A model generated the notes under the pieces. It saw only the letters and a program-made list of their open reading frames with translations. It did not search any database and was not told the DNA's origin. The position numbers and the translations under genes were made by a program. 64,000 nucleotides of DNA from a virus (lineage: Duplodnaviria > Caudoviricetes): IMG/VR virus record IMGVR_UViG_3300037608_000261, positions 1 to 64,000 of that record; one strand, written 5' to 3'. This document shows, in pieces, positions 17,310-34,944 of the stretch. How positions within the stretch are numbered: the first letter of the stretch is position 1; the number at the start of each line of letters is the position of its first letter.

Positions 17310-17714
17310 CTATTCTCGCATTTCCATGTCTGGGTCATTTGAGGCAAATTCAACCGCATCTCCGCCGTCTATGGTCTCCATAACATGGAATGGATCATCA
17401 ATCATGTTTTTGGCCATTCGCATGTCCTCATAGAGGAAGGCGGCCATAATATTCAATTCCGGCTTGCCGTAATCCATAGTTGAAAACCATTCTTGATCGA
17501 GAAAATCTCCAAAAGAGAAGTCTTCTTTATCAATATAGATTTTCTTCAACGGCCACCAGTATGGCCCATAGGTCCTGTAGCGAAGTGGGCTCTTTAGAAG
17601 AATGACCTTTAGATTTGCCGAAAACTTTTCTATCCACTGATCAAGGGGCTGCTTGGCCACGGCCTGCATTAAAAAAGGTTGTAAATCGTTTTCCGAGGGC
17701 TTATAGATGTCCAT
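17310..17714 (-). CDS. ulx: Ulx-like anti-restriction accessory protein
   Basis: LLKSPLRYRTYGPYWWPLKK resembles P1 Ulx; located downstream of darB as in P1. Confidence 0.7.
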   Translation of the reverse strand: MDIYKPSENDLQPFLMQAVAKQPLDQWIEKFSANLKVILLKSPLRYRTYGPYWWPLKKIYIDKEDFSFGDFLDQEWFSTMDYGKPELNIMAAFLYEDMRMAKNMIDDPFHVMETIDGGDAVEFASNDPDMEMRE

Positions 17715-18715: not shown

Positions 18716-21700
18716 TTATGCAATTAATTCATAGATTACCTTCAAGTCAGTCGATGAAGGCATGTGCCACCAGGCTCCTTTGAACGCTTCCCCCGCATCC
18801 GAAAAGAACTGAGCCCCATAACGCGCTTTCAGAATGTCTTTTGTCCTGAAAAGCACACCGCTTTTTCCATTTCTGTCCTGGAAAAACCACTTCGCAAAGG
18901 GTTCCAAAACGGTCCCCCTGCGCCCTTTAAACCCTGGCAAAGCCATGCTTGTAATGTTGGTTTTGACCGTAATGCCGATTTTGGCAAACGCTTCTATTAC
19001 TTCCTGCGGGACCTCCTTATAGCGGGGATCACTCTTCAGCGCTTCCTGAGCGGCCCGCTCTTTATCGGCTTTCTTGGCTGTCACCGCCGATTCCAATTCG
19101 GCCACTACCCCGTCAACATATTGATGGGCGATCTGTCTGATTTGCTCGGCATTATCTCCCAATTCTATTGTACCAGCCCCTATTACGTCAGGAAGTCGGT
19201 ATTTCAGGTTTGTCATAGTGGTAGAACCGTCTAAAACAGATCCAACAATGGCGTCAAAACCTCCCTTCTCTTCCAGGAAAGTAGCCCATCTTTTGGCACA
19301 ATATTCACGTACTTCGACCTCTGTTGCTGTTTTCCCATAGCCAAGAGCAACTTCGTTGTAGTTGTTGCCGAACAATAGCCCCATTATGCCCGAAATATAG
19401 TAGCCCGACCCACCTTCACGCTTTACCGCAAGGTAGGCTTCACATACTGCCTTGCGAAACCCCTCGTTGTTTGGTTCGGGGTAGACGATAGCTGCCGCAA
19501 GGCCCTCAGTAGAATACCCGTCAGCAATGTTTATTGCTCCGTCCTGATTGCGAACGACATATATGGAGTGCTGATCCCAATTGATCTCTTGGCGGTGATC
19601 GAGAAACGTCTCCTTATCAATCCTGCCATCAATGAGCGAATTATAGTCATGCGGTTCCGACAATGCCTTTTTAAGGTTCAGCTCTTTCTCGGAATAGGAG
19701 ACCTTTTTCAACCCTTTGGCTTCCAGTTTAGCCAGACTGCCAGCTAAGTACCACCCCCAATTACCCGGAACGCGCCCCAAGTCCATTGACCCGATCCGAC
19801 CCGTGATATCTTCATACTTGAAGGCCCGGTGCACCGGATCAACCTCTGAAATCTTTATGATTCCATGTTCGTAATCACTCTTATATTCATAGCAATCACC
19901 AACAGCAACTACTTTGCCGGCCAGGGTCACACAGGCGCTTTCGGGTTTGTCTATCAGGGTTTCATCAAAGGGAAGTTGCCCTTTCTTTGCCTTTTGTTTA
20001 AGAAGACCAGCAGTCTGCTTCACTGTCGATGTCAGCCTGGTCCGTCTCTCATCAAATGTCTGATCCAGTGTTCCAAGCTTTACCGTAAAATTCTTCAGGG
20101 TTTGCTGCTTTTCAACAATTTGGCTGCCCAATCTCATTCGATCATTCCCTTCGGCAGCCGACCACCTTTCCTGAAGCCTTTTGATTTCTGCCTCAAGATC
20201 AGGAATTCTCTTAGTCAGACGCTCGCGCTCTGCCTGCCTTGCCACATCAAGGCCAGCAAGGTCCATAGTTGCCTGCGAAAGTATCTGTAACTGGTTTGCA
20301 AGTCGCCTTTGTTCTTTTTCGGCCTCTTCTGCCTGCTTCGCCGCCAGTCTATCCAACCGTCTCTTTTTGGCTGCCTCGGGATCTGCTTCAAGCATATCCA
20401 TCATCTCATCTTGGCTTAAGGCATTTGCGTTTTCTGCCGTCGCGTCGGTACCGCCAAAGAGGTCGCTCATCCAATTTGATTTTGCTTTAAGTATCTCAAG
20501 ACGGTATGCATCGAAAGACCCTTTCCCGCAATAGTAGTAGATGTGAATCATGGGGGCAGTGTTGCCCTGTCTGACCCCGCGCCCGTTTCTCTGTTGGATA
20601 CTCGCAGGCGTCCACGGAAGGGTTAAATGGTGAATGGCGGTAGTGCCTTTCTGAAGATTGACCCCGACTTCCGCCTTTTTGTTACAGATCACAAATTTCA
20701 GGCCCCCTGAATTATACTGGTCAGAAATTTTTTGCAGGTCCTCCCCCTGAGCTTCCTCAGCGTTAATAATACCGATCAATTTGGCAATGGTAGGAATATG
20801 GTGCACAATTAGTCGCAAAATCTTTTGGTGCTGTGATTTCTCTTCCGTAAAGATCAGTTGCTTTCCGTCCGCCTCAAGGTCCGACCGTAGGTTTTCAATT
20901 AGACGTGCATATTTTGGCATGAGGGGGTGTGAAACATTTTCCATGGCAATGTTATTTTGTGGGATTCGATCCACAACCAGGTTCTCGTATTCTTTTGGGA
21001 AGACCACAACATAGCTTCCGTTTTCCGTTCGTGAAGTAATTCTAAGCTCTACAGTGACTTCCCGAGATTTACCCTTGTTCATTTCAGGATCAAGTCCGAG
21101 TGCATCCATTTCCTCGTCATCGAGGACACGCTTAACCTTGATAGATTGGGGAAGACTTTTTACCAGATCATCTACATTGGGCTTGTCCCCTTCCCGGAAC
21201 ACAAATGTCATTGTCTTATTATAGAGGTCCATGTCCGTCGTGACCCTATCCATGTCTCGGATAACGGAAAACATGCTTTCCTTCTTTTCCCCTCGACCCG
21301 GTGGTTTTGCAGCATCCTTTGCCCGGTCGCGCAAGATTGCATAGACCCGTTGCTGTTCCTCGGTGAGTTCGATATTAAGACTTGTCTCCTCATGGGGAGG
21401 CAGCTTGATCTGATCGGGAAAGTCCTCTGCACTTTTCATATTTACATATTTGTGGAACATGCTGCGCAACCCATCAAGATTTTGAAATCCCGTCAGCCCA
21501 TCTTTAGACTTTATGCCACCATCAACCATCATTTTATCTACGCTCGTGATTTGCCCGAATACGCGGATGAAGTCGTCTGGGGTATATATGCCGTAGCGTT
21601 CAAATTCTTCTAAAGGGCAGGTATAGGAAAGCATGTTGAATATCTCGAATGGGCTGTTCGTAACCGGGGTAGCGGAAAGCATGTAGGCCCCTCGACCATT

Positions 21701-24700
21701 GTTAGCATCGCGCAGATAGGCCATCTTCATGGTCATATCGAGGGCGCGTTTTGCGGGCGGGGCCGTGGGAAGATAGGCCACATCCTGGTAGTGCTCCCCA
21801 GCAAGGAGATTATTTTTGAATTCGTGGGATTCATCAATTATGATATCGGTGAACCCCATATCCTCGAAGTAGGGAAGTTCTCCCTTTTTCGCAGTTCCCT
21901 CATCGGAGAATTGCTGTTCAAGTCTTGTTTTCGCCACATCCTCATCGTAAGAAATCTTCTTCCCTGTTGACTTGTCATCGCCTTGAGCGTTGCCACCCGT
22001 CGCCTCTGCGTGCATTTTCTCGCTGATGAGCGACCTTTTGACCATCTTATCGGCATACGTCTTCTTGCTGTCCGGTCTCATAGGAATCATGCCGAATTTG
22101 TCTTTTGTCATAACAACAAGAGAATGATTTGACTGGGGGATTTTCCACATGGCTTCCCATACATCCTCTTTGCTGTTTCTCTCTACAAGAACATCCTGGT
22201 ATTCAAGCTGTCCAGTAAATGCGTTTGTCTTTGGGTTTCCCCTCTCGTCCTTGACGACTTCATGTTCGACTTGCCCATCCTTGCTTGTTTTTGGTTCAAA
22301 ACCGATGAAGAGCGCATCGTTGAGATTACCCAGGAACTTCTTTGACTCATGATACCAGTTCCCCAGCACTGATTTAGGAACCACAATACAAGTTTTCTTG
22401 GAGCGGCCCATCTTTTTGTTATATGCATAGAGTCCGAGGGCTGAGTAGGTTTTCCCGAGCCCAACATTATGGGCCAGTATCCCCCGACCCTCTTCGGATA
22501 ACCGCCTGACAGCCGCATTCTGATAACCGTGCAGCTTCACCTGTGGCGAAACTCCCTCCAGATGCAAATTACTATCTTCATAGTCAAAGGGCGTGAACCC
22601 ATTGAATTTTCGGTTATATTGTTCAGCAATTTCACTTATTTCAATATGCTGTTGCATCCATGCGTTGAACTGTTCTTCGAGAATTCGACAACGGTCTTTA
22701 TACTCTTTGATTCTTTCTTGTGCATCTTCTCCGGATGATGTGACATTACCGCCGTTGAGATAGGAGAGAAACTGCTTCGGGAAACCGCCCTTACTGTCAA
22801 TTCCCACAAATTCGCCAAACGGATTATCATAGTCCTCTTTAAACTGCGTAGTGGTGAACGTCTTGCCGGAATAAGGGTCTTCTTTTTCTACCTTTTCCAT
22901 TGCCCCGTAATTTACATTCGGGTACCCATTTTCTCTGAGAAATTCAACCACATATTTTCTATTGAACCACTTCTGACGCATACTGAATACAATATTGTCA
23001 GGCTCCGTTGTTATGCGCTTGCGCATGATCTCGGAGATTTGCTTCATATACTTGTCTTTAATCTGTTCATCCTTTTCCGCAGCCAGTGCATCGCCCATAG
23101 CCTGAATCTTCGGATAGATATCTCCTACGGTATAGCGCCCCATCGGGACAACGAAACCATCCGGGGTAATTGCCAGCGCGCCGTCATCGGCAAGGTCGGA
23201 CAGTGACTTTATTTCACGTTTCCCTGTGTAAAGCTTTTGGATATCCTCCAGCTCTATTTCCCTAATTCCTTCCCGAACAAAGAGGTGTTCGACAATAGCT
23301 TGAAGATTTGTCGAATCATACTCCAAGGTCCGTCCCGATCCGCCCATGGTTCCGGCAAGCAGGTCGGAAAACTGGCCATTTTCATCAACAGCATTCTTGA
23401 AAAGGCCAAACATCTTTGAAGTTTCCCCGGTTATCAACAGCCCCTTGTTATTTTTAGGGTGCCCATAAGTATCGATCTCCTTGGAAACAAGCTCCTGCAG
23501 TTCAAGCCGATCCACATCTTCGGCAGTTCCGTCGTTGACAGAGTTCTGATAGCGTGCAATCATGCCGCCAATGATTGAGCCCCGGAATAGCTGTTCTTGG
23601 TATTCTTCCTTGGGCTGGCTCATGGCAAATTCGATGGAGGCCTTCTGTAGTGGGGTCAAGTATTCCGGGAAAGCTTTAAAGATGGCAAAGAGCTGCTTTG
23701 CGGAAAGAACCAGGGCTCCCTTTGGCGATGACAGGACTGCCTTCAGTTCGGCCAGGCTTGCCGCACCGTAGCGATCCTTGTCAATGGCCATGGATGTATC
23801 ATCTGTCTTGACTACACGGGACCACCGTCCATTTGTCAGCTCATGCTCTGTGCCATTAATGATCTTCCGGTCGCCCTCTATATAATTCCTGGCTATGGGT
23901 TCCGATGCCTCAAGGAGGTCCCAGTTTATACGGGAGTCAAACTTTTGAGCCAGACGCACTTTCAGACCCGCATTGTCAATATCCCCGTCCACAACTTCCC
24001 GACTCCATCGATCACCCTCGACTTTCGGGACCCACTTGCCCATGATGAATTGGTGTCCTTCGCCAAGCCAGTATTGGCCGCTAACGAATTCATCCCAAAC
24101 GACCTTTGCGGCCTTCATAATATCGAAGGGAACGGTGTCTATTTTCTCCAAGAACTCTTTCGGATGCTTTCTAAAGACAACGATGTCCACAACAGTGTCG
24201 GTTCCCTGGGCCGAGAACGTCTTAGACGGTAGCTTGTGTGCCCCAAGAAATTCAGCTTTTTTGTTGACTGCTATTCTGAATTTTTCCCATTGCCCTCCCT
24301 TGGCACCCACGATGTTAGTGGGGACGACCAAGCAGCAGAGGCCACCAGGCCGAACCTTGTCTAAGGCTCTGAGAATAAAATAACGTTCAATCCGCTTTTC
24401 ATCCTTGTAGTCTGGATCATCATAAGCACTTGCACCTCGTGCATTGCCGAACGGGACATTGCCAACCACGGCATCAAAGGTGTTGTCTGGGGTTTCCATG
24501 ACAACCTTTTCGAAGGATTGAGTTTTGATCAGATCATCCGGGTTGAGAAGCTGTGCCACTTTTGAACCTACAGGATCAATATCCGCCCCGGTGATGATCG
24601 TCCCTTTTGGCTTCGTTGCCGAGAAGACACCGGCGCCCGTGCAGGGGTCAAGAACGTTCCCATTCTCAAATCCGTTTGCCATCATACCATCCCACAGCCC

Positions 24701-25054
24701 TTCGGCCACATGAGTAGGCGTGTAATATTCAAACTGGGAATTCTCGGTAAGGCCACCGCGCCCTGAATATTGTTTCAGTATCTCCCGGTCCTCGTCCTTC
24801 AAAGCTCCAGAGTCCTTCACGCGGTCGATAATCTCGCGGGCCTGTTCATTTAGCCTCTCGCGGGCTTTAATGCCCTTGACTTTTAGACCATAATCCGAGC
24901 TTTCATTTTTGTAATTGCTCGGGTCTTTTGGCGACTCTTGACCAGGTATTTGCTTCAAGTCAAAAAGGGTTTGAATAACTACTGCTATTTCAAAGAAATT
25001 GCCTGCTGCTTGAACCTTAGATTTCCAATCGGGTAAAGCACGTTCAAGAATCAT
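18716..25054 (-). CDS. darB: DarB-like N6-methyltransferase plus SNF2 helicase anti-restriction protein
   Basis: DPCTGAG and NVPFG MTase motifs; HNVGLGKT, IDESHEFKN, SATPVTN and QQRNGRGVRQGN helicase motifs; 2112 aa. Confidence 0.9.
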   Translation of the reverse strand: MILERALPDWKSKVQAAGNFFEIAVVIQTLFDLKQIPGQESPKDPSNYKNESSDYGLKVKGIKARERLNEQAREIIDRVKDSGALKDEDREILKQYSGRGGLTENSQFEYYTPTHVAEGLWDGMMANGFENGNVLDPCTGAGVFSATKPKGTIITGADIDPVGSKVAQLLNPDDLIKTQSFEKVVMETPDNTFDAVVGNVPFGNARGASAYDDPDYKDEKRIERYFILRALDKVRPGGLCCLVVPTNIVGAKGGQWEKFRIAVNKKAEFLGAHKLPSKTFSAQGTDTVVDIVVFRKHPKEFLEKIDTVPFDIMKAAKVVWDEFVSGQYWLGEGHQFIMGKWVPKVEGDRWSREVVDGDIDNAGLKVRLAQKFDSRINWDLLEASEPIARNYIEGDRKIINGTEHELTNGRWSRVVKTDDTSMAIDKDRYGAASLAELKAVLSSPKGALVLSAKQLFAIFKAFPEYLTPLQKASIEFAMSQPKEEYQEQLFRGSIIGGMIARYQNSVNDGTAEDVDRLELQELVSKEIDTYGHPKNNKGLLITGETSKMFGLFKNAVDENGQFSDLLAGTMGGSGRTLEYDSTNLQAIVEHLFVREGIREIELEDIQKLYTGKREIKSLSDLADDGALAITPDGFVVPMGRYTVGDIYPKIQAMGDALAAEKDEQIKDKYMKQISEIMRKRITTEPDNIVFSMRQKWFNRKYVVEFLRENGYPNVNYGAMEKVEKEDPYSGKTFTTTQFKEDYDNPFGEFVGIDSKGGFPKQFLSYLNGGNVTSSGEDAQERIKEYKDRCRILEEQFNAWMQQHIEISEIAEQYNRKFNGFTPFDYEDSNLHLEGVSPQVKLHGYQNAAVRRLSEEGRGILAHNVGLGKTYSALGLYAYNKKMGRSKKTCIVVPKSVLGNWYHESKKFLGNLNDALFIGFEPKTSKDGQVEHEVVKDERGNPKTNAFTGQLEYQDVLVERNSKEDVWEAMWKIPQSNHSLVVMTKDKFGMIPMRPDSKKTYADKMVKRSLISEKMHAEATGGNAQGDDKSTGKKISYDEDVAKTRLEQQFSDEGTAKKGELPYFEDMGFTDIIIDESHEFKNNLLAGEHYQDVAYLPTAPPAKRALDMTMKMAYLRDANNGRGAYMLSATPVTNSPFEIFNMLSYTCPLEEFERYGIYTPDDFIRVFGQITSVDKMMVDGGIKSKDGLTGFQNLDGLRSMFHKYVNMKSAEDFPDQIKLPPHEETSLNIELTEEQQRVYAILRDRAKDAAKPPGRGEKKESMFSVIRDMDRVTTDMDLYNKTMTFVFREGDKPNVDDLVKSLPQSIKVKRVLDDEEMDALGLDPEMNKGKSREVTVELRITSRTENGSYVVVFPKEYENLVVDRIPQNNIAMENVSHPLMPKYARLIENLRSDLEADGKQLIFTEEKSQHQKILRLIVHHIPTIAKLIGIINAEEAQGEDLQKISDQYNSGGLKFVICNKKAEVGVNLQKGTTAIHHLTLPWTPASIQQRNGRGVRQGNTAPMIHIYYYCGKGSFDAYRLEILKAKSNWMSDLFGGTDATAENANALSQDEMMDMLEADPEAAKKRRLDRLAAKQAEEAEKEQRRLANQLQILSQATMDLAGLDVARQAERERLTKRIPDLEAEIKRLQERWSAAEGNDRMRLGSQIVEKQQTLKNFTVKLGTLDQTFDERRTRLTSTVKQTAGLLKQKAKKGQLPFDETLIDKPESACVTLAGKVVAVGDCYEYKSDYEHGIIKISEVDPVHRAFKYEDITGRIGSMDLGRVPGNWGWYLAGSLAKLEAKGLKKVSYSEKELNLKKALSEPHDYNSLIDGRIDKETFLDHRQEINWDQHSIYVVRNQDGAINIADGYSTEGLAAAIVYPEPNNEGFRKAVCEAYLAVKREGGSGYYISGIMGLLFGNNYNEVALGYGKTATEVEVREYCAKRWATFLEEKGGFDAIVGSVLDGSTTMTNLKYRLPDVIGAGTIELGDNAEQIRQIAHQYVDGVVAELESAVTAKKADKERAAQEALKSDPRYKEVPQEVIEAFAKIGITVKTNITSMALPGFKGRRGTVLEPFAKWFFQDRNGKSGVLFRTKDILKARYGAQFFSDAGEAFKGAWWHMPSSTDLKVIYELIA

Positions 25055-28000
25055 TATGCGCGTCCCTCCTGCAAAGATGTTTTGATGAGTTTCAATAACT
25101 TATCCATATTTCTCTGGTCACTGAGCATATTCAACGGATCTTGTTTTAGAGTCCGTCTAATGTTCGGAATGATACTCCGATTGATTTCTTCCCGTAACGT
25201 GGAGAAATCAGATTGTTCATATAATCCAATATGGGCGCTGTCTTTCATGATGCCGCTGATTTCCTGGAGATATCCAAGAATTTTTTTTATGTTCTTCCCG
25301 TAAGTCTTCCCCTTGCTTTCTTCCATAGCCAGAATGCTTTTGTATTTCTGATGATAGTCATCAATAAAAGCATCCAGTCTTGCGGTATCGTAAGAAGGGG
25401 TAACACTTCGGCGCTTTTCGATGATCAGATTGTTTAGGAAACTTCTTATCTTGTCTGCCGTGGGATTCTCTTCACGTAAGTAACGATCCCCTTGGGTCAA
25501 ATAGCTGTCGGCTTCCGAGGTGATTTCCATGATTTGTTTCCGGGTAGAGGCTTCATTCAGTGCCTTTAGGTAGTTCCGGTATGCTTCAGCCCTTGGGTAT
25601 GCTTGCCCTTGCGCCCTCTCTTCAGCAACCAGGACATTTATAAGGCTGGGAATGTCTTTATCGTTCCTCTTTTTATCTGATAGAATGTCTTGGTATTCAT
25701 TTATGACTTCGGCGGGGATATCTTTCCCTGCCTTAATTGCGTCCTGAATATCTGTAAAATGCACCGCATAGGCTTGGGCTTCCGAGACAATTTCGGGATT
25801 ACGTTTCCAGAATTCAGCGATTGTCATCTCCCACGACTTTTTGGAATTATTTATTACCATCGGGAATATCTTTTCAAATACTGAGAATATCTCATCGAAC
25901 GATACCGACACGCTAACGGCCCTTCTCCAATCAAATTCACCAGTATCCTCAAAAAGGTTCTTTCCGCCATCCTGGACGTGGTCGCGAGGCTTAAGACCCT
26001 CGGTCATCTTTCCCAAATATGCTCTCCATGCAACGATTGATTTATCCTTGTTTTCGATTGCGGTTGCCCTTCGGTTCCTGCCATCAATAATGTCCCCGTC
26101 CGGTCCTATTAGGATTGGTTTAGAATGGTCAGCATCTGGATCATTGACAGGGTTAAGCGTTTTAGGATCGATTATTTCCAATTGCCAGTAATCGCCTGCC
26201 GCTGACCAGTGTTTTTTCTCGGCATCTGATACCTTTCCGAAGGTATCCCGATACTTGTTTATTTTGAGTACATTCTTATAGAAATCCTGCCATGCAAATG
26301 TATTTGCGGACTCTAAAATGCCTTTGGCAACTTCTGTCGCTGCATCTATATCTTCATTTTGGGCTGACTCAAGAATAGTATTACTCGCGGACTTCATGAT
26401 GTCGCCTTCGCGTAGCCACTTTTTGAAGGCCTCCATGGAAAGCTCTGTAATTGCTCCTATCCTGTACACACCCTTACCATCTGAAAACCCTTTACAGTAA
26501 ACTTCACGAGCATCTTCGCTGTCGTTACAACCAATAATCCCTTTGCATTCATCGAACTTCCCGGTATCTACATCAAGTTGATCGACAATAAACACCCGTT
26601 CGCTGTCTGTGTTTTCCCCTATATACACATCAAAATTGTCACCATCGGGGGCTTTTGTCTTTTTCACATATCCATAATGCGCAGGCATAGTAACGGACCA
26701 CTTCTTTCCATTAGGGTCTATCCCGGATCGCTCGGACCCCTTCGGGTTCTCAATGGCGATAGCCAGGCCACTAATAGTTACATGACCCTTACGGTAATTT
26801 CCCGCTTCTTTTTGGGCCTCTGTGGGCTCAGAAAGGTTATTCTTGGGAGAGGATGCCGCTTTGTGGGCTTCCTTGTCAATTGCAGATGACTCAAGAATCT
26901 CCTTGACAGCATTCATATCTGCGCCTATACTTTCTTTATAGTGAGTGTAATGCTCTCTATAAGAAGGTTCTGAGGCCGGGGCTAAATTCTCTGGAACAGA
27001 ACTTTCTAAAGGTCCCGACCTCCGGGCTTCTACCCCGGACAAACTTGGGGCCTTTCTTTTTTCGTAAAGCACATCAGGATCATGATTTAGATTGTAAAAC
27101 AAGTGCCCCCTGTCATCTTCTCCGACTGTAACGCCTACAAGAATAATTTCATTTTCCATCTCAACTTTACCGTCAAAAAAATGAAACCTTTTGATATTGT
27201 CATGACGGGTTTTAAACGGATCAGAAACGCAATGTTTCCCATATTGAATGATAACGGGTGCAACAGGAAGTAGTTTGGCTTTTTTAATGTCCGTTTTTAT
27301 ACCGCGTCTAAACTTTTCCCACCCTTTACCGGAAAACCTTATCTCCCCAACACCTTCCCTGGTTACTGTTTTGCCCTGTAGTTTTGCCCTATAATAGGCT
27401 CTGGCTGTCTTAACGGAATTCTCCGAATCAATGTCATCACCTAATTCTTTACCGGTAAGCGTCATCAAGACACCACCTGCCGATTCAAATAACCTCGTCC
27501 CTTCTCTTGCGGTTTTTTCTTTTTCTATAGCCAGCGTTACAATTTGGGTCGGTGTCGGTAAAGGCTCCCCTGCATCTATAAGTTTGGGTGCTTTCTCATA
27601 TTCAAGACGGGTTTTTAATAATCTGCCTGCTTCTTTAAAAACCGCTCCCATGCGCTTTGCGGACCGGATACTATCATTGATAAACCTGGCGATATGCTTC
27701 GTATCCTCCGATACATTATCAAAGAAACCGCCCTGATTGAGCACCATTTCAAGAGATTCCCCGTCTCCCTTTGATCTTTTAACCAGTTTTGCGGCCTCGA
27801 TAATGCAGCCGGGTATGTTTATCCCCATAAGGTCCGATGATAAAGCCTTTGCCTGTGAGAATTCACCTGCTGCAACAGTCATGGCTGACAGGATGTTCTT
27901 TATTTTCGGGTCCATTTCCTCAGCCATAAGGGCAAGTAAATTATCATCCTGATATGCTTTCTGGAATATGGCAGCCTGTACACGGTCGATAAGCTGTTTT

Positions 28001-29382
28001 GTGTATCCTCCATCTTTTGTCATGTAGCCGGTTGCTGCAACTCCGCCCATGTTCTCGACGAATCTTGCCAGGAACGCACGGTTTGATGTAGCCGTTATAT
28101 CTCCGTCTTCAGAAGGTTGAAAAAGGGCAAGGTCTTTGTCGGTAAGTTTTGCTGCATCCGCCCTGGCAAGTTCAGAAGGCGCCATTTGGGCAATCTCGTC
28201 TTCGTTGGCCTTTCTTGTAAACTCTGCCCGGTCTATTTCAGTAATGCGGATTCTTACCAGCACGGGTTTATCCATACCTTCGATAATCTTTCCGGAAATA
28301 CCAAAATTACCTGAATTATCAATTATCCACTGCTTGTATTCCTGCCCTTTTGTACCTGAATTATATGCTTTGCGTATTGCTATAGTCCTGCCGTTGCCAG
28401 ACTCAACAGTGAGGTCCTGGCCGATAACAGGAGCTCCCGTTGAAACGCTTGTAGATTCTCCAAGACGTTCCGGATTTAACTTTCCAGCCATTTGCTCAAC
28501 CTGTAATTTCATACCTTCCCTGGTACGGTCCCTGGGCTGAAGGTCCTGTGAAAAACCCTCATTGAGAGACATATCATCATCATGGGAAGTAATCAGGCGG
28601 TCGATCTCTACCACGGCATATTGAAGATCAATAGGGGTATTGTCATTAAGGTAGGAGGTTGCCTTTTCGCCTTTGGTGATGCCTGTTTCATTTTCGTCGT
28701 CAAGCTCTGCGGATTTCTCACGCATACTCTTGATCTTACTTTCAAGCTCTGAAATCTCTCTGGAAATGAATTTCTTTACTACAATGGGCCCGAACATTGC
28801 CGCAAATACGTTCTCTATGTCGTCGAAAGAATGAGCGGCTTTAACTGCTTGATTATAGTCGGTGACTGGCTGGACACGCTCGAAAATGGGCTTGATAGAA
28901 TTGGAAAGCGGGTCTATACTCTCTTTGTAGAGAGCGTCATGCTCTCTGTCAAAAGGCTCCAAACCCCGGGCTTCTAACCTGGGTAAAATTGGGGCCTTTC
29001 TTTTTTCCATAAGTACATCCGGATCAGAAAACAGGTCTACATATCCTTCAGGCGGGATAAATCCTAATACCTCAAAATCACGGATGCTGTTTTGTTTTCC
29101 GTCTTCAAGATAAATCTTGCTAAGGGTAAGAACATGGTATATGTCTTCAGGAAAGGTTTGATCGCTTTCTTCCAGATCGAATTTATAGCCTCTCATTCCG
29201 AATCCGAATTCACGAAAATACTCTTTTAAAACTTTCTCCGGCATTTTAAGGCCATAATTATTGATCTGAAATTTTGCCGGGCAGTCAAACTCTGTCGGTT
29301 CTATTCTAAGCCCTATTTCTCCTGCAAGGGTCATAATGTTAAAAGTATAAGGAGTTACCGGATATTGAATGTTTTCAATCAT
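25054..29382 (-). CDS. ddrB: DdrB-like polyvalent protein (DdrB-ParB, LPD3-like, PPase-like, second ParB-like domain)
   Basis: LQPRDRT and ESGNGRT; GLAIAIENPKGSERSG...HYGYVK...DGD; PILIGPDGDIIDGRNR. Confidence 0.7.
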   Translation of the reverse strand: MIENIQYPVTPYTFNIMTLAGEIGLRIEPTEFDCPAKFQINNYGLKMPEKVLKEYFREFGFGMRGYKFDLEESDQTFPEDIYHVLTLSKIYLEDGKQNSIRDFEVLGFIPPEGYVDLFSDPDVLMEKRKAPILPRLEARGLEPFDREHDALYKESIDPLSNSIKPIFERVQPVTDYNQAVKAAHSFDDIENVFAAMFGPIVVKKFISREISELESKIKSMREKSAELDDENETGITKGEKATSYLNDNTPIDLQYAVVEIDRLITSHDDDMSLNEGFSQDLQPRDRTREGMKLQVEQMAGKLNPERLGESTSVSTGAPVIGQDLTVESGNGRTIAIRKAYNSGTKGQEYKQWIIDNSGNFGISGKIIEGMDKPVLVRIRITEIDRAEFTRKANEDEIAQMAPSELARADAAKLTDKDLALFQPSEDGDITATSNRAFLARFVENMGGVAATGYMTKDGGYTKQLIDRVQAAIFQKAYQDDNLLALMAEEMDPKIKNILSAMTVAAGEFSQAKALSSDLMGINIPGCIIEAAKLVKRSKGDGESLEMVLNQGGFFDNVSEDTKHIARFINDSIRSAKRMGAVFKEAGRLLKTRLEYEKAPKLIDAGEPLPTPTQIVTLAIEKEKTAREGTRLFESAGGVLMTLTGKELGDDIDSENSVKTARAYYRAKLQGKTVTREGVGEIRFSGKGWEKFRRGIKTDIKKAKLLPVAPVIIQYGKHCVSDPFKTRHDNIKRFHFFDGKVEMENEIILVGVTVGEDDRGHLFYNLNHDPDVLYEKRKAPSLSGVEARRSGPLESSVPENLAPASEPSYREHYTHYKESIGADMNAVKEILESSAIDKEAHKAASSPKNNLSEPTEAQKEAGNYRKGHVTISGLAIAIENPKGSERSGIDPNGKKWSVTMPAHYGYVKKTKAPDGDNFDVYIGENTDSERVFIVDQLDVDTGKFDECKGIIGCNDSEDAREVYCKGFSDGKGVYRIGAITELSMEAFKKWLREGDIMKSASNTILESAQNEDIDAATEVAKGILESANTFAWQDFYKNVLKINKYRDTFGKVSDAEKKHWSAAGDYWQLEIIDPKTLNPVNDPDADHSKPILIGPDGDIIDGRNRRATAIENKDKSIVAWRAYLGKMTEGLKPRDHVQDGGKNLFEDTGEFDWRRAVSVSVSFDEIFSVFEKIFPMVINNSKKSWEMTIAEFWKRNPEIVSEAQAYAVHFTDIQDAIKAGKDIPAEVINEYQDILSDKKRNDKDIPSLINVLVAEERAQGQAYPRAEAYRNYLKALNEASTRKQIMEITSEADSYLTQGDRYLREENPTADKIRSFLNNLIIEKRRSVTPSYDTARLDAFIDDYHQKYKSILAMEESKGKTYGKNIKKILGYLQEISGIMKDSAHIGLYEQSDFSTLREEINRSIIPNIRRTLKQDPLNMLSDQRNMDKLLKLIKTSLQEGRA

Positions 29383-31505
29383 TTCAAGTCCTCAATAAAT
29401 GTTGGGAGTTCTTCAATGTCTTGTAATTCAGGAGGCACTAACTTCTGTTTTACGCTGAGCTCCAGCTTGTAACCAATTGTTGATGCTGTTTTCGGATCAA
29501 CAATGATTCCTTTTTGAACGTAAAGGAGATAAAGGAATACAAAATTTCTTGCGTCCTGCCTGTTGCTAAAATACATACCGTGGGTTGCCATACCAGGTCC
29601 TTTAGGATCACCGGGGTAATAATAATAAATTACTGTTGTTCCTTTGCTTTTGCCTCTGGACGCACCATAACCGTCTATGCTGACAATCAGCCCGTCGCCT
29701 TTACCTTTCCAGAATTCATCATCTTTGGCTTTTTTTGCTAAGGACGCATAGAATTTATCAATAATTTCCTGCCTGCTTGTCTCGTTTAATGCAGCTTGCT
29801 GCACGATTCCCTTTTTGGCAATTTCTCTGGCTGTCGGCTTTGATCTCATGAAGCCAACCATCAGACTGAACATCTGCGGATCGCGCTTTGCAAGAAAGAT
29901 TGTGTCTTCCGGAGAGGAAAACATCTGTAACCCCATGGAAAGCACTTCGGTAGAGGCTTGGCGATAAACTTTACCAACATAAGGATCAAAGAAATCATCT
30001 GTATAGGCAACTTCATCTGATCTAAAACCAGGGTTCCCGGTAATGCTCTTCAAGCTCTTGAGCCCTTTCTCCTTTTTTGCTCTTGTATCCCGAAACGTTT
30101 CGCCCATGACTTCCAGTTTCATCTCTGCTTCCAGCAAGTGCGCCATTTCATGAAACAAAATCTTTTTTGTAAAGCGGCTGTCAACGTAGATTAACCCGCG
30201 AGAATGAATGGCATTTGCCCTTTTGTCTCCCTTTGAATCAAAAAACGCCTTGCCGATCCTGCCGCCTGTTAACCGGTAAAATTCTGCCATGTCCTTTCTG
30301 ATTGCGTTTTCATCATATCCTTGCTTTTTTAGACGGGCTTTCGCTGTTTTACTTATCGCCTGGCTTTTTACCCACTGATCGGCTTCTTCTTCTGTCACGG
30401 GGGATACTTCAAGGATTTTAGCGACAACGACTTTCCCTGCCTGATCGGTAATCTCTTTTTTTCTGGCTTCCAGGCCCTTGATCTCTCCTTCCATATACTT
30501 GGTTTCAAGATCGGCCATTTTCTCACGGTATTTCTGTCCTATAGGCTCTATGAATGCATTCTGGAGGTCGCTTACTTTAGAAGAAATTTTGTCATATTCC
30601 TCGGCGTATCGTTTCAAATACTCATTTTGTTCTGTTGACCATTTGGGCCATCCTCCAGCACCGCTATCGCGTTGAGCTTTTTGATTGTTGTACACCCAGT
30701 CGTTGCGTTCTTTGTTCATGTCATATAATTTCTTTGTCAGGACGTCCAGCCCACACGCTTTTCTTGCCGCTTCCTTATCCACTGCTAACTGATTAATCGT
30801 CTCCTCTAATTCCTCATTATATTGCTGATGCAGGACATCTATTTTCTTTTGAAGTTCATCAATCTGATTCACATTTTCGTAAAAACTTGGCATAGCCTCA
30901 TTGAGCAGTTTTTCTCCGTCTTTGCAATTCCTGTCAAAAAGATATTTGCCAACTAATGCAGGGGATTGAAGTTCTATTATGGCAGCATCTTTCATTGCTT
31001 TCCCTGCCATGTTCTTGAAGCCAGGGTTGTAACGGCATTCTCTGGCTATGCCTTCAATCTCACGGGCAATTTCGTATTTTATTTCAATGTCCGTTTCTGC
31101 CCGAAAGACATCATGAAGAGCCATAGCTTTCTTCGCAGCATCGTACTCTTTTTCCCATGAATCAGGATTAATACTGTAAGGAAAAAGACGAACGAATATG
31201 TTCAGAATGTCATCAAAGTTAAGAGCGTTTTGGACAAGACGAGGGTAATTGTCTTTTGCCGTAACAAAAACCACTTTAACTGGTGGGGTGTTGTCTGCAC
31301 CTTCAAGTACTTTATCCTCTTCTTTGACGCCCATGGACTTTTTGAAAACGCCTACTACGTATTTCCTATAGGCTTCTCCGTCATCTGCCTCAGAAATACC
31401 GGCCTGTTCCTCGGTAATCTTCTTGGCTTTCTCCCATCGGTTTTCAGCTTCAGAAATACTGATGTTCTTTTCTTCTGCAAGAGTTCTTACAAGCGCCGCA
31501 GGCAT
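29379..31505 (-). CDS. Polyvalent head-internal protein with a zincin-like peptidase domain
   Basis: Coiled coil then ILFHEMAHLLE and TEVLSMG motifs; inside the Dar operon. Confidence 0.6.
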   Translation of the reverse strand: MPAALVRTLAEEKNISISEAENRWEKAKKITEEQAGISEADDGEAYRKYVVGVFKKSMGVKEEDKVLEGADNTPPVKVVFVTAKDNYPRLVQNALNFDDILNIFVRLFPYSINPDSWEKEYDAAKKAMALHDVFRAETDIEIKYEIAREIEGIARECRYNPGFKNMAGKAMKDAAIIELQSPALVGKYLFDRNCKDGEKLLNEAMPSFYENVNQIDELQKKIDVLHQQYNEELEETINQLAVDKEAARKACGLDVLTKKLYDMNKERNDWVYNNQKAQRDSGAGGWPKWSTEQNEYLKRYAEEYDKISSKVSDLQNAFIEPIGQKYREKMADLETKYMEGEIKGLEARKKEITDQAGKVVVAKILEVSPVTEEEADQWVKSQAISKTAKARLKKQGYDENAIRKDMAEFYRLTGGRIGKAFFDSKGDKRANAIHSRGLIYVDSRFTKKILFHEMAHLLEAEMKLEVMGETFRDTRAKKEKGLKSLKSITGNPGFRSDEVAYTDDFFDPYVGKVYRQASTEVLSMGLQMFSSPEDTIFLAKRDPQMFSLMVGFMRSKPTAREIAKKGIVQQAALNETSRQEIIDKFYASLAKKAKDDEFWKGKGDGLIVSIDGYGASRGKSKGTTVIYYYYPGDPKGPGMATHGMYFSNRQDARNFVFLYLLYVQKGIIVDPKTASTIGYKLELSVKQKLVPPELQDIEELPTFIEDLK

Positions 31506-31518: not shown

Positions 31519-32616
31519 TTAATTCACGTAACTGTTTGTTCTGGTCCAGAGTTTCCCGAACACTTCGCTGAGCGCGCTTTCCATGATTGCTTCAATCTTG
31601 TCCTGGTTGGTTTCAATGTACGTGATTGTAGGTGGCTTTACGGGTTCGATATCGTTAATTTCCTCTACAATATCCTTCAGGACCTTCAAAAATACTTCGG
31701 GTGGTTCGTTGTTGTATTTGCCTGCAATAAGGTCGGTAAGTTTCTGATTCTGGTGTGGCCCTCCCTGACCATTTATGTAATTGGAATATGCTTTCACGGC
31801 ATCGTAGGGTTCCGGAAAGTATTCAGTAACCCCTGCGCCTTTCTGATACATTACCCGGTAACCTTCACCTTGGCTGTATGATAGGAGAGCATCTCCACCG
31901 ATACCGCCATGAAGAGTAAAGGCAATGCTGTCGCTTCGATCCTCAAGGACTTCTCCGCCGTGATCGATTACGGCGTTTTTCATCTTACGGATATCAGGAT
32001 CGCCTTTTGGGTATTCGTCCTCTGTACCTGTCTTTTCGCCCACGCCTTTAACCTGTCCAAGTGTCTTGGTTCTCCAATATAAGTCAAGTTCAACATTAAG
32101 CCGTATCAGTTCTTCGATATTGATATACCCCAGTTCTGCATTCTGTTTGTCATTGTTCAGGATCGCGTAACCAAATGCCTGAAGCTGCTCTTCTTCCGAA
32201 TCCTTTTCTGTAATGTACCAGTCTGACCCGCCTTTGAAATAATGAAGATATACAACCGCGTCGTCGCCTTTGCCATCCTGCCCGTAAACCTTCGGCATGT
32301 CGTTAATAGCCTTGGCAATTTCCACAAATTTGTCTTTAAAGGATTGACCTTCTTCACCCCTGGTCCCATTACCCATTGCGGATAATTGAGACGGTCCTAT
32401 AAAATGCTTTACCAGAGGCATGACATTATTAACGTCAGCTATCGTTGCAGGCTGCGGTTCAACTATGTCCAGCTTTTCCTTCAACTTTGCGAAAGCGTCC
32501 TGTATTTCCTTCTGAAGCGTTCTCTTCTCAGCAAAGGGGAGAGTACCAGCCTGAAGGTTAGCCAGATTCATTGTAATTACTTTTTGTAGACCTCGTTTTT
32601 CAGAGAATGAAAGCAT
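31519..32616 (-). CDS. Dar-operon protein with a DUF2958-like domain
   Basis: LHYFKGGSDWYITEKD...FGY...ELGYINIEEL...ELDLYW; duplicated N-terminal L.F.EKR.LQK helix. Confidence 0.55.
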   Translation of the reverse strand: MLSFSEKRGLQKVITMNLANLQAGTLPFAEKRTLQKEIQDAFAKLKEKLDIVEPQPATIADVNNVMPLVKHFIGPSQLSAMGNGTRGEEGQSFKDKFVEIAKAINDMPKVYGQDGKGDDAVVYLHYFKGGSDWYITEKDSEEEQLQAFGYAILNNDKQNAELGYINIEELIRLNVELDLYWRTKTLGQVKGVGEKTGTEDEYPKGDPDIRKMKNAVIDHGGEVLEDRSDSIAFTLHGGIGGDALLSYSQGEGYRVMYQKGAGVTEYFPEPYDAVKAYSNYINGQGGPHQNQKLTDLIAGKYNNEPPEVFLKVLKDIVEEINDIEPVKPPTITYIETNQDKIEAIMESALSEVFGKLWTRTNSYVN

Positions 32617-32617: not shown

Positions 32618-34327
32618 TTATGCAGCCTCCTTTTTCAAGAGTTCTGTTAAGTGATCCGCTGCGCTATTTAATAGAGAGTCGAATTCCTGAGCTTTCCCTT
32701 CTGCTTCCAGATCGGCAGCAGCCTTATCAAGGGCATCTCCCAACTTACCGGAATCTCCATCATATTTACCGGCAAGAATGTCGTTAAGGACGCTAACGGC
32801 TGGGGATTCGGTTGTATCGGTAGGTCCCTTAGTTGTATCCTGAGCGCCGCCTGCCAGTTTCAGCGACCCGTCAGCAAGGTATCCCTGAAGTTTGTCGTAG
32901 CTGATGCTGATACTGCTGTTATCGCTCTCAAATGTGATTGCGGGGAGATTTGAACCGCCAGCCTCCGCGCCGTCAAGCCTACGAACGGAAAACCCACTCA
33001 TGTAATCATCCGCCTCAAACGCTGGCGACACAAAGGTTTTACGGCTGAGCATATACTGGTCACCAACCTTAAACTGGCTTACAACGGATTGATATTTCGC
33101 CGCCCACCCTGCCACGGTTTCCCTGTCCTTGATTGCAGCATCGAATGCCTTGATAGCTTTATCAAAGGCATTGTTGGCTGTGACAATTCCCTTTGCCTCA
33201 AATTTTTTATCGGCTGCATAAACAACGACCTTGCCTGCTGGCGCTTCGTCAACCATTTCAACGTAATAGGTGACCGATATGGTTTCGACCGCAAGCTTCC
33301 CTTTATAAGTTCCAACCATGTCGATCCTGAATTCGTTGTCGTTTGTTCCACTTCTTTCTGCGCCCCGCCCCACCAATTCTTGCTCAAACTCTGCCTTCTT
33401 TGCCTTAAATTCCGTCCTTTCCTGCTCTGCTTTCATCTCTGCCTCGGTCTTCGGAGTGTCCCCGCCTGTTGCTTTTCCGTCATTACCTGCCTGCTTTCCT
33501 TTCAGTGCATCTATTTTATTCTGTAAATCATCATTAAAGGCTTTCTGTTTCTCTATCCGTTCCTTCAGGTTGATAACTTTAGCATCTGCGGCTTCGACGG
33601 AATCCTGCTTTTCCTTCAGTGCAGCAACAAGCTCATCATGCTGTTTTACTACCGTATCAGCTTGTGCCTTCAGGTCCCCAAGTTGCTTTTTCTGTTCAAG
33701 AAGTTCTTTCTGCATAACCTGAAAGCGAACACTGTTTTTTTCCACCAGTTGTGCCGTTCTCTTGCCAATTTCCTGGAGGCTTATCTCAGCGTCATTTTCA
33801 GGAGACACGACATGGGTTATATCTCTCTTATTCAAGAGCCAACGGAAAGCAATAATTTCATCATCTGCCGTGATCTTCATTTTGTTGTTATCCGGACTAT
33901 GGAAAATTACGCTCACCACCTGACCATCGCTAAATGGAATCTGGACAGTGACGGAAGCAAATAGACCTGTTTTCTTTGGTGTTCCGATTACCGGACTCAT
34001 GGCTTCGATGTTCTTGTCTTTCAAATAACCGTTGAACACGCGCACAAGGGCGGCCATTTTAGTATCCGTCCGTGCAAACTTCTGAATCGTAATGGCTTCA
34101 AGAATCAGGAGCTCTTCGGTCTTCAGCCTGTCGTTTTCGTCATAAAAGTCCCCAGGGTTATAGACATCATTCACTTCATCCATGGTGGCAGTTTCGAATA
34201 GAAAACGTTCCTGCCTTTTATCGGCAGTCAGCTTGTAATATGCTTCAGATAACTGAATGCCGGTAAAGCCTGTAGCAAAATAGTCATATCCTGTTTTAAT
34301 CCTCTTACCTTCTGTCAGTGGATTCAT
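32618..34327 (-). CDS. darA: DarA-like anti-restriction/head morphogenesis protein
   Basis: VTVQIPFSDGQVVSVIFHSPD...FRWLLNKRDITHVVSPE domain; follows hdf. Confidence 0.85.
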   Translation of the reverse strand: MNPLTEGKRIKTGYDYFATGFTGIQLSEAYYKLTADKRQERFLFETATMDEVNDVYNPGDFYDENDRLKTEELLILEAITIQKFARTDTKMAALVRVFNGYLKDKNIEAMSPVIGTPKKTGLFASVTVQIPFSDGQVVSVIFHSPDNNKMKITADDEIIAFRWLLNKRDITHVVSPENDAEISLQEIGKRTAQLVEKNSVRFQVMQKELLEQKKQLGDLKAQADTVVKQHDELVAALKEKQDSVEAADAKVINLKERIEKQKAFNDDLQNKIDALKGKQAGNDGKATGGDTPKTEAEMKAEQERTEFKAKKAEFEQELVGRGAERSGTNDNEFRIDMVGTYKGKLAVETISVTYYVEMVDEAPAGKVVVYAADKKFEAKGIVTANNAFDKAIKAFDAAIKDRETVAGWAAKYQSVVSQFKVGDQYMLSRKTFVSPAFEADDYMSGFSVRRLDGAEAGGSNLPAITFESDNSSISISYDKLQGYLADGSLKLAGGAQDTTKGPTDTTESPAVSVLNDILAGKYDGDSGKLGDALDKAAADLEAEGKAQEFDSLLNSAADHLTELLKKEAA

Positions 34328-34917
34328 GCCGCCACCTCCTTTAACTGGTCGTATTCTGTCTGTAGAGATTCTCCCACGGCAACCAGATTGCTTAATTCGG
34401 TTTCAAGAGCAGCTACAGTATTGCTTTTCTCTGTACCGGCGGTTTCAATCTCTGTTATCTGTGCGGTGATCTCTGCGTTGGCTGTATTTGTGTCATCAAC
34501 GGTAGTCTGCATCTGTGAAATATGCTCAGCCACCGTTGTGTTGACAGCTTTTATCTTAGGTATAACGACCTTTTGGCGCGCAAGAGCCTTCTCCTTCATT
34601 TTCTGATAATGAGGTTCGTTCGCCTTAACATAATCAACAACTTCCTGAATCGCCTTGTCGAGGTCGTCAACGTTCTTGATGGCCAAGACTTTGTTGTTCA
34701 GCTTGACCTGGAAAATTGAGCCACCCGCTTTTGCTTTCACGAGAAGTTTCTGTCCGCTCTCGAAGTTAATGATTGCGGATTTTACCTGGAATCCAGATTC
34801 ACGCTTTGCCTTATTATCGGCCTCCACGTCAGCAACCGGCAAACCCGTTTTCTCGAACTTTTCCAGAATAGGCTTTAGCCCCACCTTGTTGAATTTGTCA
34901 AAATCGATATGAATCAT
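34324..34917 (-). CDS. hdf: Hdf-like (DarA-related) protein
   Basis: KRESGFQVK...FESGQKL...GSIFQVKLN.KVLAIKN pattern with a coiled-coil tail; precedes darA. Confidence 0.8.
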   Translation of the reverse strand: MIHIDFDKFNKVGLKPILEKFEKTGLPVADVEADNKAKRESGFQVKSAIINFESGQKLLVKAKAGGSIFQVKLNNKVLAIKNVDDLDKAIQEVVDYVKANEPHYQKMKEKALARQKVVIPKIKAVNTTVAEHISQMQTTVDDTNTANAEITAQITEIETAGTEKSNTVAALETELSNLVAVGESLQTEYDQLKEVAA

Positions 34918-34944
34918 CCTTAGCCTCCCTTTCAATTAACTGTT

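What the first reader, a model, noticed from the sequence alone, without database searches (positions are those of the whole stretch)
24960..31250. Shared helical motif in four cargo segments: candidate capsid-targeting signal
Seen: DarB N-terminus DWKSKVQAAGNFFEIAVVIQTLF; DdrB-like DYNQAVKAAHSFDDIENVFAAMF (near 28.8 kb) and DWRRAVSVSVSFDEIFSVFEKIF (near 25.9 kb); 708-aa protein NYPRLVQNALNFDDILNIFVRLF (near 31.2 kb). Consensus [DN][WY]xxxVxxAx[SN]Fx[DE]Ixx[VI][FI]xx[LMI]F. Each copy lies downstream of an xxE site (ILE, LME, LFE, VLE). Known: the P1 DarB N-terminus directs capsid packaging. Inference: a portable packaging tag reused on several cargo segments, potentially usable to load proteins into heads.
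Basis: partly seen in the sequence, partly recalled or inferred. Interest (0 to 1): 0.75.

Follow-up and report, generated by a model that had tools for sequence, protein, structure and literature searches.

The report
Shared head-loading tag on phage cargo
A 24-residue two-helix tag, usually just after a head-protease cutting site, recurs on the injected anti-restriction proteins of this P1-like prophage and of dozens of uncultured relatives; it is probably the address label that loads or holds them in the phage head, but nobody has tested that.

Summary
Four copies of a 23-24-residue motif lie at 24962-25030, 25864-25932, 28792-28860 and 31182-31250 (minus strand), in three translationally coupled cargo genes of a P1-like Dar operon. 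There are no other copies in the 81.9-kb provirus.

A profile built only from distant DarB-like N-termini ranks these four copies as its top four hits in the genome. The same module occurs in 86 of 120 DarB-like proteins, one to three times in upstream polyproteins of related IMG/VR phages, and in 37 further cluster representatives among 1.84 billion. All 19 representatives scanned are phage-type polyvalent proteins.

81% of 108 unique copies follow a hydrophobic-hydrophobic-Glu site within 20 residues, against a 15% background. That site matches the mapped P1 capsid-protein cleavage site.

Profile-profile comparison links the motif, in register, to the N-termini of P1-type DarB and DdrB. The DarB N-terminus lies inside the 30 residues shown experimentally to target P1 heads.

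Best reading (about 0.6): a portable capsid-targeting or anchoring hairpin coupled to a prohead-protease site. Function is untested. The link to P1 is weak at the sequence level, and several predicted segments carry no tag.

I rate it a new variant of a known kind.

The parts
24962..25030 (-). Tag copy A, residues 9-31 of the DarB-like methylase-helicase
   Evidence: AF2 predicts helix 10-15, a turn, then helix 20-30 (pLDDT about 74), followed by a low-confidence linker 31-53.
25043..25051 (-). Ile-Leu-Glu site, residues 2-4 of the DarB-like protein, 4 residues before copy A
   Evidence: Glu4 is kept in at least 90% of 26 aligned DarB-like proteins.
28792..28860 (-). Tag copy B, residues 175-197 of the DdrB-like polyprotein, about 50 residues before its ddrB-ParB domain
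   Evidence: Scores 26.6 bits (E 1.8e-7) with the independent profile.
28879..28887 (-). Ile-Phe-Glu site, 6 residues before copy B
25864..25932 (-). Tag copy C, residues 1151-1173 of the DdrB-like polyprotein, heading its C-terminal module of unknown function
   Evidence: weakest copy, 8-14 bits. An orthologous copy is kept in the 80%-identity relative L009.
25948..25956 (-). Leu-Phe-Glu site, 5 residues before copy C
31182..31250 (-). Tag copy D, residues 86-108 of the 708-aa peptidase-bearing protein
   Evidence: In relatives the orthologous protein starts with Met-Ile-Leu-Glu plus the tag.
31302..31310 (-). Val-Leu-Glu site, 17 residues before copy D
18716..25054 (-). DarB-like N6-methylase plus SNF2 helicase, 2112 aa
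   Evidence: Pfam and PHROG hits. 36% identical to P1 DarB over 73% of its length.
25054..29382 (-). DdrB-like polyvalent polyprotein, 1442 aa (ddrB-ParB, LPD3, InPase). It has 13 candidate protease sites against 4 expected.
29379..31505 (-). 708-aa protein with an HExxH peptidase module equivalent to the C-terminal part of P1 DdrB
31519..32616 (-). 365-aa gene in the ddrA position. Its N-terminal double helix repeat is shared with the N-termini of 14 other DarB-like proteins.
32618..34327 (-). DarA-like internal head protein, 569 aa
   Evidence: PHROG 1926. N-terminal propeptide block.
34160..34201 (-). DarA propeptide: Leu-Phe-Glu site followed directly by a half-tag (residues 43-56)
   Evidence: Conserved in 14 DarA homologues, including P1 and D6. 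hhalign 11.9 against the tag profile, reached by 2 of 444 shuffles and 6 of 140 natural decoy windows.
34097..34105 (-). DarA second site Ile-Leu-Glu (residues 75-77), the predicted mature N-terminus
   Evidence: Aligns with P1 DarA Leu-Leu-Glu68. Residues 1-69 are invisible in the P1 cryo-EM map (PMC12810830).
34324..34935 (-). Hdf-like protein
   Evidence: PHROG 1620.
17310..17714 (-). Ulx-like protein
   Evidence: PHROG 1629.
2473..3501 (-). Homologue of the P1 prohead protease Pro, next to the portal gene (3517-5196)
   Evidence: PHROG 1801 is the family of P1 pro; PHROG 1497 is portal.
49927..49935 (-). Predicted maturation site Leu-Leu-Glu (residues 120-122) of the major capsid protein gene 48667-50292
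   Evidence: Aligns column for column with the P1 gp23 site Met-Leu-Glu120 | Ser121, which was mapped by Edman sequencing.

Best explanation
The motif is a small, portable helix-turn-helix hairpin. Its consensus is D-W-x-x-x-I-x-x-A-x-S-F-x-D-I-x-x-V-F-x-x-L-F, and one face carries about nine conserved hydrophobic residues.

I propose that it docks head-internal cargo onto a component inside the assembling P1-type procapsid. The result is that anti-restriction and host-takeover polyproteins are enclosed in the head.

The hairpin is coupled to a cleavage site of the prohead protease Pro (hydrophobic-hydrophobic-Glu, most often Ile-Leu-Glu followed by Arg or Lys) lying 3-8 residues upstream. After maturation, each tagged module would therefore begin with its own hairpin and could stay tethered until ejection.

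Shown here:
- the motif, its recurrence and its conservation;
- its restriction to phage cargo proteins;
- its coupling to the site;
- its predicted fold;
- its profile-level, in-register similarity to P1-type DarB and DdrB N-termini.

Inferred:
- that it binds a procapsid receptor;
- that the sites are cut by Pro;
- that the tag is kept on the mature fragment.

The receptor is unknown. Candidates are the DarA-Hdf lattice, the ddrA-position protein, the capsid protein's scaffolding domain and Pro itself.
For: 1. Position and experiment. Copy A is the extreme N-terminus of a DarB homologue. In P1, the first 30 residues of DarB suffice to send a reporter into heads and 9 residues do not (PMC9024508).

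2. Homology to P1-type N-termini.
- hhalign of the 82-copy tag profile against 20 P1-type DarB N-termini gives 15.1 (P 2.2e-4), in the expected register. This beats 903 of 903 column shuffles (max 11.0) and 140 of 140 natural decoy windows (max 14.8).
- Against P1-type DdrB N-termini the score is 14.3, beating 441 of 441 shuffles; one decoy window reaches it.
- P1-type DarB and DdrB N-termini match each other at 20.3, probability 80%.
- The D6 DarB N-terminus aligns in register in an anchored HMM; only 12 of 2000 shuffles do as well.

3. Conservation.
- 86 of 120 DarB-like proteins carry the tag directly before the methylase, and 16 of them carry it internally, up to about 800 residues in.
- Ala17 is invariant, and Glu4 and Phe31 are at least 90% conserved.

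4. Specificity.
- All 42 hits of 9 bits or more, among 14,642 ORFs of 78 related loci plus the provirus's own 961 ORFs, lie in cargo ORFs on the DarB strand.
- The search of 1.84 billion representatives gives 43 proteins at E <= 1e-3. 37 were verified with one to three copies, and all 19 scanned carry phage-type polyvalent domains.
- A podophage DarB-like giant protein has no copy.

5. Coupling to the protease.
- 88 of 108 unique copies have the site within 20 residues upstream, against a 15% background.
- The site equals the mapped P1 capsid-protein cut, Met-Leu-Glu | Ser, and the aligned Leu-Leu-Glu | Ala of the window's capsid protein.
- It also equals the DarA site that fits the cryo-EM N-terminus.

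6. Fold. The model shows two short helices at pLDDT about 74, separated from the enzyme by a low-confidence linker.
Against: - No packaging, binding or cleavage experiment exists for this motif.
- P1 DarB itself gives no significant score. The short HMMs find nothing in P1 or D6. The anchored shuffle test for P1 gives p = 0.3. An HMM of P1-type N-termini does not find the four window copies.
- The profile-profile scores are modest (probability 37-45%).
- In P1, deleting DarB residues 11-30 was reported as tolerated. That deletion removes most of the aligned motif.
- Several predicted mature segments carry no tag (InPase, LPD3). Ulx, Hdf and the 365-aa protein, whose P1 counterparts are virion proteins, also lack it, so it cannot be the only route into the head.
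- A tag kept after cleavage is not what the T4 precedent predicts.
Confidence: 0.6

Rival explanations
1. Protease-substrate module. The hairpin is a docking element on the primed side of the cut. It presents the adjacent hydrophobic-hydrophobic-Glu site to the prohead protease, so that polyproteins are cut at the right places. It has no role in getting cargo into the head.
For: - 81% of copies follow such a site at a tight spacing of 3-8 residues.
- The site is kept even at extreme N-termini, where cutting would free only four residues.
- The DarA propeptide has a half-tag directly after its first site.
Against: - The mapped or best-supported sites have no hairpin after them. These are the capsid-protein site, the second DarA site and the three Ile-Leu-Glu | Ser sites flanking InPase.
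- P1-type DarB and DdrB N-termini have the motif but no upstream site.
- In P1 the N-terminal 30 residues are sufficient for targeting.
Confidence: 0.15
2. Retention or ejection leader. The hairpin is not needed for entry into the procapsid. It acts after maturation, at the new N-terminus of each fragment, either holding it on the inner capsid surface or leading it through the portal and tail at infection.
For: - The tag lies after the predicted cut and would be retained, unlike the T4 signal, which is removed.
- The P1 cryo-EM map shows unassigned density around DarA-Hdf pairs, which leave the head with the DNA.
Against: - P1 data show that the N-terminus is needed for incorporation itself.
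- Untagged fragments would need another route out.
Confidence: 0.15
3. Fusion relic or structural cap. Each copy is only the inherited N-terminal end of formerly separate cargo genes, or a generic capped amphipathic helix. It has no shared partner.
For: - The tag travels with particular modules as units. Tag plus ddrB-ParB keeps a 72-77-residue spacing in seven proteins.
- Similarity to P1 is only at profile level.
Against: - One narrow profile describes copies in front of at least six unrelated modules.
- Nine hydrophobic positions and the Ala and Ser of the turn are conserved across proteins that share nothing else.
- Natural decoy windows do not reach the score.
Confidence: 0.1

Closest known systems
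Capsid-targeting signal in the N-terminal 30 residues of phage P1 DarB (Gonzales et al. 2022, PMC9024508)
   Same: - Same protein family and the same place, directly before the homologous methylase.
- Same phage type, with Hdf, DarA, Ulx, Pro and P1-type capsid protein present.
- In-register profile-profile match to P1-type DarB N-termini.
   Different: - That paper reported that BLAST found no consensus among Dar N-termini. Here a consensus emerges, shared with DdrB and, as a half-tag, with the DarA propeptide.
- The window-type tag is multi-copy, often internal, and coupled to a protease site that P1 DarB lacks.
- Direct sequence similarity to P1 is not significant.
Phage T4 capsid-targeting sequence of internal proteins (IPIII, Alt), cut by gp21 after Leu/Ile-x-Glu
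   Same: - A short N-terminal address on injected head proteins.
- The same kind of cleavage site, ending in Glu.
- It can carry foreign proteins into heads.
   Different: - The T4 signal is about 10 residues, lies before the cut and is removed.
- This tag is 24 residues and two helices, lies after the cut, and recurs inside polyproteins.
- No sequence similarity was tested or claimed.
Phage-type polyvalent proteins (Iyer et al. 2017, PMC5512222)
   Same: The carriers are typical members. ddrB-ParB, InPase, LPD1/LPD3, ART-PolyVal, PBECR and the zincin peptidase are strung together in late operons.
   Different: That work proposed processing by the proteins' own zincin peptidase. My term searches of its text turned up no targeting motif and no prohead-protease sites between domains. 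No Pfam model covers the tag.

Membership tests
P1 DarB-type capsid-targeting signal | Lies within the first 30 residues of a DarB-family methylase-helicase, directly before the methylase | tested here: met
   Copy A is residues 9-31. The methylase homology to P1 DarB begins about 25 residues later.
P1 DarB-type capsid-targeting signal | Sequence relationship to the P1 DarB N-terminus | tested here: inconclusive
   - Profile-profile match to P1-type N-termini scores 15.1, beating 903 of 903 shuffles and 140 of 140 decoys.
- The D6 anchored test gives p = 0.006.
- P1 itself gives p = 0.3, and HMM searches fail in both directions.
P1 DarB-type capsid-targeting signal | Sufficient to direct a heterologous protein into heads | not testable with these tools
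   Needs a fusion-and-packaging experiment.
P1 DarB-type capsid-targeting signal | Phage encodes the Dar incorporation machinery (Hdf, DarA) and a P1-type head | tested here: met
   PHROG hits for Hdf, DarA, Ulx, PmgB/C/G, portal, Pro and capsid protein.
T4-type capsid-targeting sequence | About 10 residues at the extreme N-terminus, ending at the protease site and removed at maturation | tested here: not met
   The tag lies 3-8 residues after the site, is 24 residues long, and is internal in many proteins.
Phage-type polyvalent proteins | Several unrelated effector domains in one polypeptide, including phage-only domains (InPase, ddrB-ParB), in a late structural operon | tested here: met
   Pfam on the window proteins and on 27 relatives. 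Gene neighbourhood.
Substrates of the P1-type prohead protease Pro | Cleavage after hydrophobic-hydrophobic-Glu, as mapped for P1 gp23 | tested here: inconclusive
   - The site pattern matches and is strongly coupled to the tag.
- It is enriched threefold in the 1442-aa protein.
- Actual cleavage is not observable here.

The most novel reading that the evidence does not exclude
The site-plus-hairpin module is a general, sequence-recognisable zip code of P1-like phages. It would mark which polypeptide segments are loaded into the head and injected, and it would be shared by DarB, DdrB and, as a half-tag, the DarA propeptide. A second interchangeable address, the double-helix repeat of the 365-aa protein, would serve the same purpose in other lineages. 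Together they would allow the injected proteome of uncultured phages to be read from sequence. They would also give a defined handle for loading chosen proteins into P1-type heads.
Probability: 0.45. Interest if true: 0.8.

Novelty: new variant of a known kind. Interest (0 to 1): 0.68.

Why it matters
P1 is a standard tool of E. coli genetics and a delivery vehicle. Its DarB targeting signal was mapped only as "the first 30 residues", and the authors found no consensus among Dar proteins.

A defined, conserved module shared across cargo proteins would:
- explain how very different enzymes are co-packaged;
- predict which segments of giant polyvalent proteins end up in the virion;
- suggest that the prohead protease, not only the proteins' own zincin peptidase, dissects these polyproteins;
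- give testable residues, namely the hydrophobic face and the Ala and Ser of the turn, for finding the receptor.

It stays a sequence-based inference until packaging and cleavage are measured.

Tried and rejected
- Megablast of the region against phage records found nothing.
- The search for related loci with the 708-aa protein found no relative.
I therefore could not see the genomic context of the DarB-like proteins or of the 43 global hits. Context comes only from IMG/VR loci and domain content.
- The 35-column tag alignment was too degenerate for the search for related loci.
- An exact back-translated eight-residue DNA pattern gave 44 IMG/VR matches. Only three contigs were real, all relatives I already held.
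- Short HMMs did not detect P1 or D6 Dar N-termini, and the reverse HMM did not detect the window copies. I therefore rest the P1 link on position and on profile-profile scores only.
- My regex count that the tag and the DdrA-like repeats never co-occur was wrong. phmmer shows two proteins with both, so I dropped the argument that the ddrA-position protein must be the receptor.
- The 365-aa protein is not detectably similar to P1 DdrA.
- A regex survey of repeats in tag-less loci was uninformative.
I redid it from files.
- Piya et al. 2017 could not be read.
Full report
**What the window is.** The window is the first 64 kb of an 81.9-kb IMG/VR provirus. PHROG profiles identify a P1-type myophage. 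They hit Hdf, DarA, Ulx, PmgB, PmgC, PmgG, sheath, baseplate, portal, the family of P1 pro, and a capsid protein 30% identical to P1 gp23. There is no nucleotide-level match to any phage record.

On the minus strand the genes run in this order:
- hdf (34324-34935);
- darA-like (32618-34327);
- a 365-aa gene (31519-32616);
- a 708-aa gene (29379-31505);
- a 1442-aa gene (25054-29382);
- a 2112-aa gene (18716-25054).

The last three overlap by start and stop codons.

- The 2112-aa protein is a DarB-type N6-methylase plus SNF2 helicase, 36% identical to P1 DarB.
- The 1442-aa protein carries ddrB-ParB, LPD3 and InPase domains. Its ParB part is 39% identical to P1 DdrB.
- Residues 368-533 of the 708-aa protein match the HExxH peptidase end of P1 DdrB. 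DdrB is therefore split between two genes here.

**The observation.** All four copies are present where stated. Similarity is confined to about 24 residues.

Three tests show this is not chance:
- Only four hits occur in the whole provirus.
- Leave-one-out models recover B, C and D.
- A profile built solely from 63 distant DarB-like N-termini of other phages ranks the four copies first to fourth among 961 six-frame ORFs. B scores 26.6 bits at E 1.8e-7.

**The family.** A search with residues 1-330 of the DarB-like protein returned 556 proteins. Of the best 120, 86 carry the motif directly before the methylase. In 16 of these it is internal, behind N-terminal extensions that reach 803 residues up to the methylase anchor motif. 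In a 26-protein alignment the motif's Ala is invariant, and the upstream Glu and the final Phe are at least 90% conserved.

A scan of IMG/VR gave 78 loci. I refined a 24-column profile to 82 unique copies and scanned 14,642 six-frame ORFs of these loci plus the provirus's own 961 ORFs. All 42 hits of 9 bits or more lie in cargo ORFs on the DarB strand.
- One 2053-aa upstream polyprotein has three copies.
- The relative at 80% identity keeps orthologous copies of B, C and D, although its domain order differs.

A profile search of 1.84 billion cluster representatives found 43 proteins at E <= 1e-3. I verified 37 with one to three copies each. All 19 that I scanned with Pfam are phage-type polyvalent proteins: ddrB-ParB, InPase, LPD1, LPD3, ART-PolyVal, PBECR, MuF_C and SNF2. 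Iyer et al. list InPase and ddrB-ParB as restricted to phage-type polyvalent proteins.

A Burkholderia podophage's 4515-aa DarB-like protein and a Xanthomonas phage's cargo genes have no copy. The tag is therefore portable across cargo types but appears tied to P1-type heads.

**Coupling to a protease site.** Of 108 unique copies, 88 have a hydrophobic-hydrophobic-Glu tripeptide within 20 residues upstream, mostly 3-8 residues before the tag. Only 15% of random windows in the same proteins have one. Ile-Leu-Glu (41), Ile-Phe-Glu (20) and Val-Leu-Glu (11) dominate. The next residue is Arg or Lys in 59 cases.

This is the specificity expected of the P1 prohead protease:
- P1 gp23 is cut between Glu120 and Ser121, after Met-Leu-Glu. 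The window's capsid protein aligns there with Leu-Leu-Glu | Ala.
- P1 DarA has Leu-Leu-Glu68 | Ala69, which fits the cryo-EM map that lacks residues 1-69. The window's DarA has Ile-Leu-Glu77 | Ala78 at the aligned place.

The 1442-aa protein holds 13 such sites against 4.0 expected from composition. Eight of them lie between its domains. It is therefore probably a polyprotein dissected in the prohead.

**Link to the experimental P1 signal.** Gonzales et al. showed three things: the first 30 residues of P1 DarB carry a reporter into heads, the first 9 do not, and BLAST finds no consensus among Dar N-termini.

From the P1-type loci I collected 20 distinct DarB N-termini and 16 DdrB N-termini. 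The comparisons are below.

| Comparison (hhalign) | Score | Column shuffles reaching it | Natural decoy windows reaching it (of 140) |
|---|---|---|---|
| Tag profile vs P1-type DarB N-termini | 15.1 (P 2.2e-4) | 0 of 903 | 0 |
| Tag profile vs P1-type DdrB N-termini | 14.3 | 0 of 441 | 1 |
| P1-type DarB vs P1-type DdrB N-termini | 20.3 (probability 80%) | 0 of 427 | not tested |
| Tag profile vs DarA propeptide block | 11.9 | 2 of 444 | 6 |

The DarB comparison aligns tag columns 4-21 in the register I had predicted by eye. The DarA block is a first protease site followed at once by a half-tag and, about 30 residues on, the maturation site. I treat the DarA match as suggestive only.

The D6 DarB N-terminus aligns in register in an HMM anchored on the methylase; 12 of 2000 shuffles do as well. 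P1 DarB does not (p = 0.3).

Sequence-level searches fail in both directions. The P1 link therefore rests on homologous position plus modest profile-level similarity.

On that alignment the P1 motif spans residues 8-24. This fits three P1 results: the sufficiency of 30 residues, the insufficiency of 9, and the loss of packaging on deleting 16-30 or 21-30. It does not fit the reported tolerance of deleting 11-30.

**Anatomy.** AlphaFold2, run on a 16-sequence alignment of residues 1-330, predicts a short helix (10-15), a four-residue turn holding the invariant Ala and the capping Ser/Asn, and a second helix (20-30). Both helices are at pLDDT about 74. A low-confidence linker (31-53) follows, and then the methylase. 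No contact map is returned, so I cannot say whether the hairpin is free. No Pfam model covers the tag.

**Mechanism.** The best-supported reading is a docking hairpin that brings cargo into the procapsid, or holds it there, paired with a Pro cleavage site so that each tagged module matures with the hairpin at its N-terminus.

Three observations limit this reading:
- The tag lies after the cut, unlike the T4 signal.
- Some predicted segments have none.
- Hdf, Ulx and the 365-aa protein have none.

The tag is therefore one address among several, and a role in retention or ejection is not excluded.

**Literature and earlier notes.** Full-text searches found no paper describing this consensus. My term searches of the polyvalent-protein paper turned up no targeting motif; it attributes processing to the proteins' own peptidase. 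Earlier notes of this scan on the same stretch made the same two suggestions, a tag and a polyprotein. They were untested first readings.

Noticed in passing
window 32437-32616 (first 60 residues of the 365-aa gene 31519-32616, minus strand): A second candidate address module. The gene starts with two tandem helices, each beginning Ser-Phe-x-Glu-Lys-Arg. The same double repeat forms the extreme N-terminus of 14 of 120 DarB-like proteins from other phages (phmmer E 3.5e-10 to 8e-4). Twelve of these lack the hairpin tag and two have both. The gene is not detectably similar to P1 DdrA.
   Followed up: partly
window 32750-32791 (DarA-like C-terminus) and 31705-31740 (365-aa protein, residues 293-304): Both proteins carry a similar short motif near the C-terminus (Leu-Asn/Thr-Asp-Ile/Leu-Ile/Leu-Ala-Gly-Lys-Tyr). 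P1 DarA and DdrA likewise share a short Gln-Ser-Thr-Asp stretch near their C-termini. I saw this by eye only.
   Followed up: no
window 25054-29382: The polyprotein has two LPD3-like modules that end in the same 12-residue stretch, with a protease-like site inside it (residues 124-126 and 772-774). InPase is bracketed by three Ile-Leu-Glu | Ser sites. The relative at 80% identity has the same modules in another order, with InPase before ParB. This suggests module shuffling between closely related phages.
   Followed up: partly
window 29379-31505: The peptidase half of P1 DdrB is a separate gene here, placed upstream of the ParB half. In relatives this gene starts with Met-Ile-Leu-Glu plus the tag. 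Here it has an extra 85-residue N-terminal extension, part of which recurs before the tag of another DarB-like protein (P0038).
   Followed up: partly
window 17901-18701: A 266-aa ORF directly after the DarB-like gene has only a weak partial PHROG match and no tag. Whether it is cargo is unknown.
   Followed up: no
L011:4598-16270: In one IMG/VR relative the upstream polyprotein and the DarB-like protein form a single 3891-residue open frame, with tags at residues 335 and 1802.
   Followed up: no
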